Positions 6,297 to 10,753 of a stretch of DNA of 55,006 nt are shown here, in pieces. The translations under genes and the position numbers were made by a program. Location: the NCBI GenBank assembly GCA_966443485.1, contig CBJOJD010000001.1, positions 1 to 55,006 of the forward strand. The letters run 5' to 3'. Positions within the stretch are counted from its first letter, which is position 1. Each line of letters starts with the position of its first letter. The DNA is from an uncultured bacterium. GTDB lineage: Bacteria; Acidobacteriota; Terriglobia; Terriglobales; Acidobacteriaceae. A model generated the notes under the pieces. That model saw only the letters and a list, made by a program, of their open reading frames with translations. It searched no databases and was not told the origin of the DNA.

Positions 6297-6381
6297 AGTT
6301 CTCAGTTCGAAGTTCTGAGTCCGAAGTTCAAGGTTCGTAGTTCGATTCCAGCTTTGAACTACGAACTCTGAACTGTGAACT
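6297..6381. repeat. Inverted heptamer array (atpD-atpC spacer)
   Basis: agttctc agttcga agttctg agtccga agttcaa ggttcgt agttcga, 8-nt loop, ttgaact acgaact ctgaact gtgaact. Confidence 0.92.
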
Positions 6382-6384
6382 GTT

Positions 6385-7827
6385 TTACGCACTCGCCTTC
6401 AGCTTCTCGGCCGTCTCCAGCACTTCCTCGATGCCGCCCTTCATATAGAAGGCCTGCTCGGGCACGTCATCGTGCTTGCCCTCGATGATCTCCTTGAAGC
6501 TGCGCACCGTGTCCGCAATCTTCACGTAGCGACCCGGAATACCGGTAAACTGCTCGGCCACGTGGAAGGGCTGCGAGAGGAACTTCTGCACCTTGCGGGC
6601 GCGAGCCACGGTCAGCTTGTCCTCTTCCGAGAGCTCATCGATACCCAGAATGGCAATGATGTCCTGCAGATCCTTGTAGCGCTGCAGGATCTTCTTCACG
6701 CCCTGCGCCACGTCATAGTGCTCCTGGCCTACCGCGCGCGCGGACAAGATACGCGAGGTCGAAGCCAGGGGATCGACGGCAGGATAGATGCCGAGTTCCG
6801 ACAGCGGACGGCTCAACACCGTGGTCGCGTCCAGGTGAGCGAAGGTGGTGGCCGGCGCGGGATCGGTCAAGTCGTCCGCGGGCACGTAGACGGCCTGCAC
6901 CGAGGTGACGGAGCCCTTGCTCGTAGAGGTGATGCGCTCCTGCAACTCACCCATTTCGGTAGCCAGGTTGGGCTGGTATCCGACGGCCGAGGGCATACGG
7001 CCCAGCAGCGTGGATACTTCGGAACCCGCCTGAGTGAAGCGGAAGATGTTGTCGATAAACAGCAGCGTGTCGGCGCCTTCTTGGTCGCGGAAGTACTCAG
7101 CGACCGTGAGGCCGGTCAGGGCCACGCGCAAACGGGCTCCGGGCGGCTCGGTCATCTGGCCATAGACCAGGGCGCACTTGGACTCCTCAAACTTGCCCGG
7201 CTTGATAACGCCCGACTCGGACATTTCCAGCCACAGGTCGTTTCCTTCACGGGTGCGCTCGCCGACGCCGGCAAACACCGAGTAGCCGCCGTGGTTCTTG
7301 GCCACGTTGTTGATGAGTTCCATGATGACGACAGTCTTGCCGACGCCGGCGCCGCCGAAGAGGCCGATCTTTCCACCCTTCAAGAAGGGCTGGATCAGGT
7401 CAATGACCTTGATGCCGGTCTCGAACATCTCCTCGTGCGTCGACTGCTCGTCGAACAGCGGTGCGGGGCGATGGATGGGATCGCGGCGCTTCTCGCCGAT
7501 CGGACCCAGTTCGTCCACCGGTTCACCGATGACGTTGAGCACGCGGCCCAGGGTCTCCTTGCCCACCGGCACGCGGATCGGGCCGCCCAGGTCGATGGCC
7601 TTCATGCCGCGGACCATGCCGTCGGTGGCTTCCATGGCCACGGTGCGCACGCGGCCTTCGCCCAGGTGCTGCTGCACCTCGAGGACCACGTTGATGGGCG
7701 CGGGCACATTGAAGCCCTCGCTGGTGACGCGCAGCGCCTGATAGATAGGCGGCATCGTCGCTTCTTCAAACTGCACGTCCACCGCGGGACCGGAAATCTG
7801 GATGACCTTGCCGATGTTCTCTGCCAT
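6385..7827 (-). CDS. atpD: ATP synthase F1 beta subunit
   Basis: GGAGVGKT P-loop, GERTREGND and DELSEED; start at MAENIG after AAGG. Confidence 0.98.
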
Positions 7828-7839
7828 GTATGCCTTCTT

Positions 7840-7930
7840 AGTTCTCAGTTCTCGGTTCACAGTCTGCAGCTCTCAGTTTCTCGTCCCACACGGGGTAAAC
7901 CGGAGAACTGCGAACTGACAACTTAGAACT
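7840..7930. repeat. Inverted heptamer array (atpG-atpD spacer)
   Basis: agttctc agttctc ggttcac agtctgc agctctc agtttct, 21-nt loop, gagaact gcgaact gacaact tagaact. Confidence 0.9.
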
Positions 7931-7934
7931 GCTT

Positions 7935-8999
7935 TTACAGCGCCGCAGCGCCGCTCACAATCTCGATAATCTCCTTGGTGATGGCCGCCTGGCGCACGCG
8001 GTTCATGTGCAGCGTGAGCGAATCGATCATCTCCGAGGCGTTGTTGGTCGCCGAGTCCATGGCCGTCATACGCGCCGCATGCTCCGCGGCAACCGACTCC
8101 GTCATGGCATGAAACAGCAACGAGGAAATGTACTTCGGCAGCAGTCCGCTAAACAGCTCTTCGGGCGACTGCTCATAGATGTAGTCCACGTTCGCCGTGC
8201 CGAATTTACGGGCCTCTTCATCGGCTTCGTGGGTGTCTGCCTCTTCCAGAGGAATACCCGCCGTCAACGCAGCGTGTGCAGCGCGTTCCCGCTCTTCGAG
8301 AGTCGGCTCAATCGCGCCTGTAACCTGCTGGGCTCCCACCTTCACCAGCGGCAAGAGCTTCTCGACAATGACGCGTTGCGCGATCACCGACTTGAACTCG
8401 TTGTAGACCACGTAGGCTGCGTCGATCTCTTCGTGCACATAGCGCGCAACGATGCTCTGGGCCAGAGCGAAGACTTCGTCTGCCTCCAGCTTCAACAACA
8501 TGCCAGGATGGTCGCCGACCATCTCCACGCGACCCTGACGCGTCTGCCGAACCGCGGCCTGTTCCTCGGTCGCCTCGGAGTACACCGCCGCCGGATAGCG
8601 CCGGCGCATGGTATCGCGCGCCTTGCGGCCTACCGCTTCAACATCGATCTCCTTGCCTTCATCGGCTCCGAGGAATGTAAACGCAGCCTTCAGGATGTTG
8701 GCATTGAAGGCCCCGGCAAATCCCTTGTCGCCGCTGATGACAATCAACAGCACCCGCTTCTCTTCCCGGGTTGCGAACAATGGATGACGCAAATTGCCGG
8801 TCTCGGGATCAAAGATCTCGATGCGCCGGGTCAGCGACTCCAGCACGCTGGCGATCATCTTGGCATACGGCCGGGCAGCCAGCGCGCGTTCCTGCGCGCG
8901 GCGCAGCTTGGCCGCCGAGACCATCTTCATGGCCTTGGTGATCTGGCGCGTGTTTTTTACGCTGCGTATGCGGCGTCTTAGGTCAAGTACGTTCGCCAT
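7935..8999 (-). CDS. atpG: ATP synthase F1 gamma subunit (long form, 354 aa)
   Basis: ITKAMKMVSAAK, EHAARMTAMDSATNNA and RQAAITKEIIEI motifs. Confidence 0.97.
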   Translation of the reverse strand: MANVLDLRRRIRSVKNTRQITKAMKMVSAAKLRRAQERALAARPYAKMIASVLESLTRRIEIFDPETGNLRHPLFATREEKRVLLIVISGDKGFAGAFNANILKAAFTFLGADEGKEIDVEAVGRKARDTMRRRYPAAVYSEATEEQAAVRQTRQGRVEMVGDHPGMLLKLEADEVFALAQSIVARYVHEEIDAAYVVYNEFKSVIAQRVIVEKLLPLVKVGAQQVTGAIEPTLEERERAAHAALTAGIPLEEADTHEADEEARKFGTANVDYIYEQSPEELFSGLLPKYISSLLFHAMTESVAAEHAARMTAMDSATNNASEMIDSLTLHMNRVRQAAITKEIIEIVSGAAAL

Positions 9000-9005
9000 T
9001 AGCTA

Positions 9006-9103
9006 AGTTCTCAGTTCCAGTTCTCAGTGGCTGAGCCAGTTCAGAGTTCACGGTTCACAGTTCGCAGCCAAAATTGAGAACTGCGAACCATGAACTGATA
9101 ACT
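9006..9103. repeat. Inverted heptamer array (atpA-atpG spacer)
   Basis: agttctc agttcc agttctc, 12-nt interruption, agttcag agttcac ggttcac agttcgc, 10-nt loop, gagaact gcgaacc atgaact gataact. Confidence 0.92.
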
Positions 9104-9107
9104 GCCA

Positions 9108-10640
9108 TTACGCCGTTACAGCTTCCGCCGTCTGCGCCTTGAAGTTTTCCTTGTACTCCTTCAGGGCCGCATGCAGCTTGTTGCGCAGATCGTCGTCGAG
9201 CTGCTTCTTCTGCGTCAGGCCATTCATGAGCTCGGTCTGCGTCTCGAAGTACTTGTGCAAGCCGTCTTCGAACGCCCGAATCTCGCTGACCTTCAAGTCG
9301 TCCAGATAGCCCTGCGTACCGGCAAAGAGCACAATCGTCTGCTGCTGCCAGGTAAGAGGCTGGAACTGCGGCTGCTTCAACAGCTCAGTGAGACGTTGAC
9401 CGCGGTTCAGCTGCTTCTGGGTCAACGGATCGAGGTCGGAGCCGAACTGCGCAAAGGCCGCCAATTCGCGATACTGGGCCAGGTCCAGCTTCAGCGTCGA
9501 ACCCACCTGCTTGACGGCCTTGATGGCGGCCGAGAAGCCTACGCGCGACACCGAGAGACCTACGTTCACGGCCGGGCGAACACCGGAGTTGAACAGATCG
9601 GTTTCCAGGAAGATCTGCCCATCGGTGATGGAGATGACGTTGGTCGGAATGTACGCCGATACGTCGCCGGCCTGGGTCTCAATCACAGGCAGTGCGGTCA
9701 GCGATCCGCCACCGCGCTCCGCACTCATCTTGGACGAGCGCTCGAGCAGACGAGAGTGGAGGTAGAACACGTCACCCGGATAGGCTTCGCGGCCCGGCGG
9801 ACGACGGAGCAGCAGCGAGATCTCGCGGTACGCCATAGCGTGTTTGGAAAGATCGTCGTACATCACCAGCGCGTGCTTGCCCTTGTCGCGGAAGTATTCA
9901 CCCAGCGCAGTGGCGGCATAAGGCGCCAGGTACAGCATGGGGGCAGGCTCTGAAGCAGAAGCCGCGACGATGATGGTGTGCCCCATCGCGCCGGCTTCGG
10001 TCAGCGTCTGCACCACCTGAGCGATCGATGAGCGCTTCTGGCCGATGGCGCAGTAGATGCAGATCAGATCGTTCTTGGCGTTGTTGATGATGGTGTCCAG
10101 CAGAACCGCGGTCTTACCGGTCTGGCGGTCGCCGATGATCAGCTCGCGTTGTCCGCGGCCGATCGGAATCATGGCGTCGATGGCCTTGAGACCGGTGGCC
10201 ATCGGCTCACGCACCGGTTGGCGATCGATGATGCCAGGCGCAAGGCGCTCCACGGGGAGCGATTCGGTGGTGGCGATGGGCCCCTTGTCGTCGATGGGCA
10301 TACCCAGCGCATTTACCACGCGCCCGATCATGGCCTCACCCACTGGCACGGAAAGAATCTTGCCCGTGCGCTTTACCTCTTGGCCTTCCTTCAGCTCGGT
10401 GTAGTCACCCAGCACCACGGTGCCCACCTGGTCCTCTTCCAGAGAAAGAGCCAGTCCGGCGATCCCGTGGGGGAAGCTGAGCAGTTCGCCTGCCATGACC
10501 TTGTCCAAGCCGTGGATACGGGCGATACCGTCACCCAGCGAGGTAATCGTGCCGACCTCGTCGACCTGCACCTTCGAGTCGTAGTTCGCGATCTGCTCGC
10601 GAAGAAGTTGCGTAATCTCGTCTGCCTTGATCTGAGCCAT
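9108..10640 (-). CDS. atpA: ATP synthase F1 alpha subunit
   Basis: GDRQTGKT and [30 protein letters not shown] 8 nt before MAQIK. Confidence 0.98.
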
Positions 10641-10662
10641 TTGCAAATTCCTTGCACTAATC

Positions 10663-10753
10663 AGTTCGTAGTTCTTAGTTCGCGGTTCACAACGGGGTCC
10701 GCCTTCAGAGTCGCGAGTCAGAGTTGTGAATTAAGAACTCTGAACTGCAAACT
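10663..10753. repeat. Inverted heptamer array (atpH-atpA spacer)
   Basis: agttcgt agttctt agttcgc ggttcac aac ... gtt gtgaatt aagaact ctgaact gcaaact. Confidence 0.88.

What the first reader, a model, noticed from the sequence alone, without database searches (positions are those of the whole stretch)
6297..10753. Inverted heptamer arrays fill all four F1 intergenic spacers of the atp operon
Seen: the spacers atpH-A (10663-10753), A-G (9006-9103), G-D (7840-7930) and D-C (6297-6381) share one grammar. In mRNA sense, 3-9 nt after the stop codon come exactly four AGUUCNN-like units, then an unrelated loop of 8-35 nt, then 4, 7 (interrupted), 6 and 7 complementary NNGAACU-like units. The 5-nt core is conserved while the 2-nt linkers and loops differ, so these are not recent copies of one element. 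I found no such array elsewhere in the 55 kb. Established: heptamer tandem repeats (cyanobacterial STRR) and intercistronic REP hairpins exist. Inference: these are long periodic RNA hairpins that act as processing or stability elements, protein-binding lattices, or footprints of a stop-codon-targeting non-autonomous element.
Basis: partly seen in the sequence, partly recalled or inferred. Interest (0 to 1): 0.88.

Follow-up and report, generated by a model that had tools for sequence, protein, structure and literature searches.

The report
Empty helix-bundle cassettes in atp operon
The four mirror-image 7-base repeat arrays between the ATP synthase genes belong to a genome-wide family that in related bacteria encloses a small four-helix-bundle gene at three of these same four junctions, and the repeat word follows that protein's lineage, so the arrays are likely recognition sites of a little-studied gene cassette rather than an ATP-synthase-specific regulator.

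Summary
Stop-anchored inverted arrays occur at 73 of 2935 gene ends in this genome and at 0 after shuffling. All 3 PF05635/TIGR02436 four-helix-bundle (FHB) genes here lie inside such arms. In relatives the same atp junctions are bare, hold an empty hairpin, or hold an FHB gene between the arms (9 of 388 spacers). The repeat word changes fast between species but stays complementary across arms, tracks FHB lineage across different sites (30 of 43 vs 3.5), and matches the genome's own FHB cassettes (47 of 84 vs 22). Linkers pair little above chance and G-U is not favoured, so the arms look more like binding arrays than tuned RNA helices. Function is untested; no RNA data were found. The repeat class (PMC4692102) and a heptamer-bearing FHB rRNA intervening sequence (PMC4990558) are published. 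This scan reported the FHB-heptamer cassette before on other DNA (82 findings). New here: filled and empty states at identical atp sites, and the protein-repeat coupling.

The parts
10726..10753 (-). atpH-atpA 5' arm, 4 AGTTCNN-type units, 9 nt after the atpH stop (10765-10763)
10691..10725 (-). atpH-atpA loop, 35 nt, with degenerate units; an FHB gene occupies this position in 7 sampled relatives
10663..10690 (-). atpH-atpA 3' arm, 4 NNGAACT units, followed by an SD-like AAGGA and the atpA ATG at 10640
9076..9103 (-). atpA-atpG 5' arm, 4 units, 4 nt after the atpA stop (9110-9108)
9066..9075 (-). atpA-atpG loop, 10 nt; an FHB gene occupies this position in 9 sampled relatives
9006..9065 (-). 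atpA-atpG 3' arm: 4 units, a 12-nt gap, then 3 units ending 6 nt before the atpG ATG
7903..7930 (-). atpG-atpD 5' arm, 4 units, 4 nt after the atpG stop (7937-7935)
7882..7902 (-). atpG-atpD loop, 21 nt; a frameshifted FHB gene occupies this position in 1 family-level relative (L095)
7840..7881 (-). atpG-atpD 3' arm, 6 units
6354..6381 (-). atpD-atpC 5' arm, 4 units, 3 nt after the atpD stop (6387-6385)
6346..6353 (-). atpD-atpC loop, 8 nt; no FHB gene found here in 96 relatives
6297..6345 (-). atpD-atpC 3' arm, 7 units ending 5 nt before the atpC ATG
5857..12529 (-). host operon: atpF', atpF, atpH, atpA, atpG, atpD, atpC; the overlapping atpF'-F and F-H junctions carry no array

Best explanation
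The four spacers are gene-less members of a cassette family made of a repeat arm just after a stop codon, an optional four-helix-bundle (PF05635/TIGR02436) gene and a mirror-image arm, and the arms likely serve as oriented recognition arrays for that protein, each protein lineage having its own repeat word. Shown: the same architecture and word around an FHB gene in this genome; FHB-filled, empty and bare states at the same atp junctions in relatives; the word tracking FHB lineage across sites; and empty arms matching the words of the genome's resident FHB cassettes. Inferred: the FHB oligomer binds the arrays as RNA or single-stranded DNA. An FHB-dependent process would then insert arms, or rewrite both arms in place, behind the stops of strongly expressed operon genes. 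Also inferred: fold-back loops the insert out of the mRNA, so stop-to-start geometry stays close to a bare spacer and the host tolerates it. RNase III may cut the stem, as it does in the related rRNA intervening sequence. Family membership about 0.9; FHB reading or driving the word about 0.5.
For: 3 of 3 FHB genes in G000 are enclosed by arms right after an upstream stop, and one uses the same AGTTC/GAACT word as the atp spacers. FHB sits inside orthologous atp spacers in 9 of 388 spacers from 100 loci, and 17 of 100 sampled FHB loci map to atp junctions (that set included the atp loci). 65 of 100 FHB genes have both heptamer arms vs 5 of 200 control genes; the 30 with no strong heptamer arm show at least one arm, mostly of 8-9-mer units, judged by eye. 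The word needs 19 changes on the FHB tree vs 63.7 shuffled. The nearest FHB at another site shares the word in 30 of 43 site-word units vs 3.5 expected. Same-word pairs within a genome's atp spacers: 58 of 144 vs 32.8. Empty atp arms match a same-genome FHB word in 47 of 84 cases vs 22.1 +/- 4.3. FHB genes are under purifying selection (median pN 0.09-0.13 vs pS 0.75-0.77 at atp sites). Unit cores pair in 76-89 of 96 cases and linkers in 38 and 52. Median stop-to-stem distance is 2 nt and stem-to-start 12 nt.
Against: No binding, mobility or RNA data exist. No FHB remnants were found in empty loops, so 'empty = deleted FHB' is not directly shown. 37 of 84 empty arms match no sampled FHB word. 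The window's AGTTC word differs from the words of the FHB cassettes found at H-A and A-G in relatives. G000's AGTTC-word FHB has a 5' frameshift in the assembly, and the abundant GTGAAGAA-type arrays have no matching FHB in this 90.7%-complete genome. FHB synonymous divergence is mostly not lower than that of atpA, so recent homing is not shown. Clade and site are partly confounded, kin are not independent, and the FHB tree is a quick tree on 119 columns. No target-site duplication or transposase was seen in the cassettes inspected.
Confidence: 0.6

Rival explanations
1. The arrays are host-maintained intercistronic RNA hairpins (RNase III sites or 3' exonuclease barriers) that set subunit ratios in atp, ribosomal and similar operons; FHB genes are passengers that land in existing loops.
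For: They are concentrated behind genes with high coding score per codon (0.49 vs 0.33). mRNA-sense folding is more stable in 108 of 172 elements. There is a small in-register pairing excess (167.8 vs 140.5 +/- 12.7). RNase III is present. The Coxiella IVS, whose 5' region carries heptamers, is cut by RNase III in vitro (PMC4990558, passages and section 16). Rehm et al. saw transcripts start or stop more often at G4-capable repeats than at control repeats (PMC4692102, section 15).
Against: Many relatives have bare spacers under 40 nt at the same sites. States change 17-27 times per site among 39-41 genomes. G-U is not preferred over A-C. Some elements lie between convergent genes. This reading does not explain why the word follows FHB lineage across sites.
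Confidence: 0.2
2. The arrays are a mutational by-product: polymerase slippage makes heptamer runs and template switching makes the mirror arm, with no dedicated protein.
For: Homologous loops carry different but related words at the same site (L104 vs L111 z 6.4, L104 vs L115 z 5.7), so arms are rewritten in place. The words look connected by one- or two-base steps. The slippage hypothesis is cited in PMC4692102 section 16.
Against: It does not predict word concordance between spacers, the match to resident FHB cassettes, the tracking of word and period by FHB clade, or the mode of four units right behind a stop.
Confidence: 0.1
3. The arrays are translational-coupling switches: the 5' arm hides the downstream start, and the terminating ribosome frees it. 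A variant is that the 3' arm is a translation-initiation element, as proposed for TAACTGA repeats.
For: 3' arms often end just before the ATG. In the AGCT word, AGGAG-forming units are enriched at SD distance (18 of 36 vs 26 of 110, p 0.006). MacGregor 2015 found TAACTGA sets just upstream of starts (PMC4679880).
Against: Predicted unpairing of the last 20 nt hardly changes when the 5' arm is blocked (0.59 vs 0.61-0.62; 169 elements). The stem ends a median 12 nt before the start. The window's AGTTC word gives weak SD energies.
Confidence: 0.06
4. The arrays are G-quadruplex repeats (the reading of Rehm et al.) or REP/MITE elements moved by a HUH transposase.
For: Same four-unit mode, stop proximity and inverted pairing as the Xanthomonas GGGAATC repeats (PMC4692102). 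G000 has Y1 transposase-family genes.
Against: The window's word has no G-tracts. There is no GTAG/CGTC-tagged fixed palindrome, and elements share at most 22 nt. No link to the Y1 genes was tested or seen.
Confidence: 0.04

Closest known systems
Xanthomonas GGGAATC / Nostoc GGGGA(C/T)T intergenic heptamer repeats (Rehm et al. 2015, PMC4692102; abstract, passages and sections 10, 15, 16 read)
   Same: Heptamer units, four-unit mode, within 50 nt of a stop on the sense strand, often inverted pairs (70 cases in Xcc), mostly between co-directional genes, variable between close species.
   Different: The word here cannot form a G4. The parts read make no link to an FHB gene. Here several words, and periods of 8 and 9, coexist and track FHB clades.
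ORF-bearing 23S rRNA intervening sequence with S23p (Coxiella; PMC4990558; passages and section 16 read)
   Same: Same protein family (23S_rRNA_IVP/S23p; 2GSC match E 5.5e-22) in the loop of a long terminal stem. Tandem GACAGAT heptamers lie upstream of the ORF, and the same word flanks FHB locus L179. Excised by RNase III.
   Different: It sits in rRNA helix 45, not behind mRNA stop codons. The window's copies carry no ORF, and cleavage here is untested.
TAACTGA direct repeats of Beggiatoaceae, Cyanobacteria and Bacteroidetes (MacGregor 2015, PMC4679880; parts 1-3 of 9 and passages read)
   Same: Nearly the same 3'-arm word, just upstream of start codons, inside ribosomal-protein operons.
   Different: Described as exact direct repeats with only one inverted case; 'four helix' does not occur in the main text.
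Avd of diversity-generating retroelements
   Same: Homologous to PF05635 (PMC10053308, passage); one G000 FHB has a weak NF033474 hit (E 2e-6).
   Different: The hit is below the Avd cut-off (28 vs 80 bits). No RT, TR or VR was seen next to any cassette inspected.
REP/BIME elements and MITEs
   Same: Intergenic, palindromic, many copies, often just after stops (REP traits partly recalled; PMC3733652 seen as a listing only).
   Different: No fixed sequence, no GTAG/CGTC tag and no target-site duplication seen; built from periodic units.

Membership tests
FHB (PF05635) heptamer-arm cassette family, gene-less form | Two inverted arrays of 7-nt units, the first just after a stop codon | tested here: met
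   4 of 4 spacers
FHB (PF05635) heptamer-arm cassette family, gene-less form | The same word and layout enclose an FHB gene in the same genome | tested here: met
   G000 C4 locus; that gene has a 5' frameshift
FHB (PF05635) heptamer-arm cassette family, gene-less form | Orthologous sites carry the FHB gene in relatives | tested here: met
   H-A 7, A-G 9, G-D 1, D-C 0
FHB (PF05635) heptamer-arm cassette family, gene-less form | Empty loops derive from a deleted FHB gene | tested here: inconclusive
   Only chance-level matches in 157 loops
FHB (PF05635) heptamer-arm cassette family, gene-less form | FHB binds or mobilises the arms | not testable with these tools
   Only correlations
Rehm-type intergenic heptamer repeats | Four-unit mode, stop-proximal, inverted pairs, co-directional genes | tested here: met
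   5' arm has 4 units in 99 of 192 elements; 48 of 57 co-directional
Rehm-type intergenic heptamer repeats | G-tracts able to form a quadruplex | tested here: not met
   AGTTCNN units have no G-runs
23S rRNA intervening sequence | Located in 23S rRNA helix 9, 25 or 45 | tested here: not met
   Located between atp genes; no Rfam match in 5600-13000
23S rRNA intervening sequence | Excised by RNase III | not testable with these tools
   RNase III gene present; no RNA run listed
REP/BIME | Fixed 20-40 bp palindrome with a GTAG/CGTC tag | tested here: not met
REP/BIME | Associated RAYT/TnpA-REP transposase | tested here: inconclusive
   Two PF01797 matches in the genome, context not examined
MITE | Near-identical dispersed copies with target-site duplication | tested here: not met
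   Longest shared stretch 22 nt; no duplication evident by eye against bare orthologs
DGR (Avd) | Adjacent reverse transcriptase with TR/VR | tested here: not met
   The RT matches lie on C71 and C77, not on the FHB contigs C3, C4 or C366

The most novel reading that the evidence does not exclude
FHB proteins are Avd-like readers and writers of a repeat code: each clade recognises its own 7-, 8- or 9-base word and, with a host polymerase or reverse transcriptase, inserts or rewrites mirror-image arms behind the stop codons of the most highly expressed mRNAs. That would make this a transposase-free selfish element family that explains the long-noted excess of intergenic heptamer repeats and the ORF-bearing rRNA intervening sequences in one stroke.
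Probability: 0.2. Interest if true: 0.9.

Novelty: new variant of a known kind. Interest (0 to 1): 0.58.

Why it matters
Intergenic heptamer repeats have been reported in several phyla without a function (PMC4692102, PMC4679880), and the PF05635 proteins have a structure but no function. The atp operon gives a natural experiment: the same junction is bare, empty or filled in related species, and the repeat word tracks the protein lineage. This makes a direct, cheap test possible: cross-binding of two FHB clades to two words. It also argues against the G-quadruplex reading as a general explanation and warns against annotating these hairpins as atp regulators.

Tried and rejected
atp-specific regulator: rejected, because the family is genome-wide. 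Assembly artefact: rejected. Known RNA family: no Rfam hit to E 1 in 5600-13000. GxxExxY cargo: no TIGR04256 match in G000, which is 90.7% complete. G-U strand bias: none. Mirror order of units: null in the first test (21.03 vs 21.01), small excess in the refined test. RBS unmasking: none in silico. FHB remnants in loops: chance level. Recent homing at atp sites: not shown; only pair L213/L200 has FHB pS clearly below atpA pS (0.25 vs 0.48). TAA preference after the upstream gene is seen genome-wide (27 of 57 vs 1044 of 4289) but not at atp sites (63 of 139 with an element vs 52 of 113 short spacers), so it was rejected as an element feature. No RNA holder was listed, which is not evidence either way. 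The careful FHB tree did not finish; the quick tree was used. Literature searches returned no listing that links FHB genes to intergenic heptamer arrays; subscription papers are missing, and no supplementary files were read, which may matter for PMC4692102. No structure or complex prediction was run.
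Full report
Observation. The window holds atpF', F, H, A, G, D and C on the - strand. Each of the four spacers H-A, A-G, G-D and D-C has four AGTTCNN-type units 3-9 nt after the stop, a loop of 35, 10, 21 or 8 nt, and 4, 4+3, 6 or 7 NNGAACT units. mRNA-sense folds are -34, -45, -41 and -33 kcal/mol, with z -1.8, -5.5, -4.1 and -5.0; the antisense strand also folds (z -2.8 to -5.7). 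DNA contigs from runs of two studies cross the spacers with 0-2 differences. Rfam gives nothing.

It is a genome-wide family. An unbiased scan of G000 (5.49 Mb, 536 contigs) found 160 period-7 tracts, and 106 strong four-unit arms vs 2 after codon-block shuffling. I used my own simple gene caller (4632 genes). Two-arm heptamer elements follow 57 of 2781 stops (48 of 1700 co-directional, 7 of 916 convergent, 2 of 165 at contig ends), with none in shuffles. Allowing three units and periods 8-9 gives 73 of 2935 junctions vs 0 shuffled; five convergent elements are counted from both sides, so 68 are distinct. Upstream genes have a higher coding score per codon (0.49 vs 0.33). By recall from their N-termini they include ribosomal-protein operons, rpoA, gap, groES, sucC and nuo genes; no call named these. 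Of 79 scorable matches (3 dropped at edges), 60 are Acidobacteriota and 19 come from eight other phyla or one unassigned record. 66 of 79 lie within 30 nt of a long ORF's stop vs 391 of 2000 random positions.

Link to the four-helix-bundle gene. G000 has three PF05635 genes, all above the TIGR02436 cut-off and related to Xcc0516/2GSC. All three lie between inverted arms right behind an upstream stop. C4 uses the AGTTC word and has a 5' frameshift, C366 uses AGCTTCT, and C3 uses a 9-mer. I took 100 atp loci, chosen by similarity to the window's AtpG: 60 from the 145 of 151 family genomes with a hit and 40 from the 57 of 61 genus genomes. Two-arm elements occur in the genus at H-A in 25 of 39, A-G 26 of 41, G-D 16 of 40 and D-C 34 of 40. 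Family-level counts are 10 of 56, 7 of 59, 10 of 57 and 11 of 56. An FHB gene lies inside 9 of 388 spacers. Other relatives have bare spacers of -1 to 39 nt, and by eye the element sits between the stop and the retained SD. PF05635 occurs in 56 of 61 genus genomes. I analysed 100 FHB loci (101 found, 1 dropped for a short flank; about half of the roughly 190 matches). 65 have both heptamer arms vs 5 of 200 control genes. The 30 without a strong heptamer arm show at least one arm, mostly of 8-9-mer units, labelled by eye. Seven of these FHB genes map to H-A, nine to A-G and one to G-D.

The repeat word behaves as a code tied to the protein. At one site the word differs between species (AGTTC, AGCTTCT, GGGATCA, GGGACTA, GGGAACA, AGTGGTC and others), but each 5' arm complements its own 3' arm: similarity 3.95 vs 3.16 +/- 0.05 in 301 permutations, 139 elements. 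On a host tree of 43 rows each site needs 17-27 state changes, and FHB presence is scattered (4 changes for 4 rows at H-A and at A-G). Spacers of one genome share a word more than expected (58 of 144 vs 32.8). On a quick FHB tree the word needs 19 changes vs 63.7 shuffled. This is partly vertical inheritance at one site: 12 of 18 AGCT-word genes map behind sucC. I therefore collapsed 96 rows (4 dropped: L095, L179, L201, L203) into 43 site-word units. The nearest FHB at a different site shares the word in 30 of 43 vs 3.5 expected, maximum 15 in 5000 permutations. Identity is 66% for same-word and 53% for different-word pairs at different sites. Empty atp arms match a word of an FHB cassette sampled from the same genome in 47 of 84 cases vs 22.1 +/- 4.3 across 31 genomes, with 37 unmatched. 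Kin are not independent in these tests. FHB genes are conserved at protein level (median pN 0.13 and 0.09 vs pS 0.75 and 0.77) and old, with pS mostly not below that of atpA. Some homologous loops carry different, related words: 9 same-site pairs at z > 4, four of them above the different-site maximum of 4.7, and 3 of 1482 different-site pairs also pass z 4. Arms can therefore be rewritten in place as well as inserted.

Array or helix. Cores pair in 76-89 of 96 cases, linkers in 38 and 52 (24 AGTTC elements). G-U vs A-C is 95 vs 95 in G000 and 228 vs 195 in orthologs (p 0.12). Permuting units does not lower pairing (21.03 vs 21.01), and a refined test shows only a small excess (167.8 vs 140.5 +/- 12.7). 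In favour of an RNA role, the sense strand folds more stably in 108 of 172 elements. The stem starts a median 2 nt after the stop and ends 12 nt before the start, about 15 nt in sum, like a bare spacer. Blocking the 5' arm does not change start-region accessibility. In the AGCT word the 3' arm often supplies AGGAG at SD distance (18 of 36 vs 26 of 110), a sign of partial host adaptation. Empty loops hold no detectable FHB remnants, and different elements share at most 22 nt.

Mechanism. Shown: these spacers are the gene-less state of an FHB cassette site class. Inferred, about 0.5: the FHB oligomer recognises oriented cores at 7-nt spacing, and an FHB-dependent process places or rewrites arms behind stops of strongly expressed genes, where fold-back keeps the insert nearly neutral. 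RNase III cleavage is plausible by analogy and the gene is present, but it is untested; no RNA run was listed.

Known systems. Rehm et al. (PMC4692102) describe the same anatomy in Xanthomonas and Nostoc and read it as G4, which the AGTTC word cannot form. MacGregor (PMC4679880) describes TAACTGA direct repeats before start codons. The Coxiella IVS paper (PMC4990558) shows an S23p ORF in a stem with GACAGAT heptamers, cut by RNase III, with the ORF probably not expressed. PMC10053308 (passages) notes PF05635-Avd homology. Seven searches listed no paper linking FHB genes to intergenic arrays. This scan's earlier notes (82 findings) already report the cassette and its gene-less form in other genomes; I had reached that reading. 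Look-ups for atp occupancy and for clade-word coupling returned no notes, nor did this genome.

Verdict. The feature is real and not atp-specific. It is a new variant of known heptamer-repeat and IVS systems, with a testable protein-word coupling. Interest 0.58.

Noticed in passing
G000:C3 (L007:1425-1915): The FHB gene between pheS and pheT (names recalled) has 9-mer arms; empty 9-mer hairpins occur at C73, C334 and C397, and 8-mer GTGAAGAA-type arrays at nine junctions, so the period is not fixed at 7.
   Followed up: partly
L113, L116, L118, L119, L128, L054 atpG-atpD spacer; L080 and L136 atpA-atpG spacer: Other small ORFs fill these spacers in relatives: a nuclease-like ORF (L113), a family of membrane-anchored proteins (L116, L118, L119, L128) and a HicAB-like pair (L054). 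Labels are recalled, not searched.
   Followed up: no
L100, L110, L113, L117 atpG-atpD spacer: A second, REP-like palindrome family (GGGCACGACTTCAGTCGTGCC and GGGCTTTAGCCCCTGAGG), tandem in L100, uses the same junction and sometimes sits beside a single heptamer arm.
   Followed up: no
window 6344, 6346, 7864, 10760: Four of the five differences listed for run X1 over 4951 bases fall in the spacers, which make up under a tenth of the stretch; each rests on a single contig.
   Followed up: no
G000:C145 (L003), C41 (L005): 12 strict elements on the 12.4-kb ribosomal-protein contig C145 and 5 in the alpha-operon region of C41 (operon names recalled), nearly all with the AGCT word, whereas all four atp spacers use AGTTC: words cluster by operon.
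   Followed up: partly
FHB alignment: The residue after the conserved SNIAEG motif differs by word class (R for AGCT, Q for AGTTC and GTGGTC, H for GGGATC, GAGAAC and the GTGAAGAA, AGCAAGT types, Y for GGGAC), a candidate specificity position; confounded with phylogeny.
   Followed up: no
window 5780-5860: A strong GC-rich hairpin followed by a U-rich run after atpC looks like the operon's intrinsic terminator (-37.5 kcal/mol for the 81-nt stretch).
   Followed up: no
L134 atpA-atpG, L136 atpH-atpA, G000:C36:1886-2039 and C524: Chimeric spacers whose arms mix two words suggest nested or serial events at one junction.
   Followed up: no
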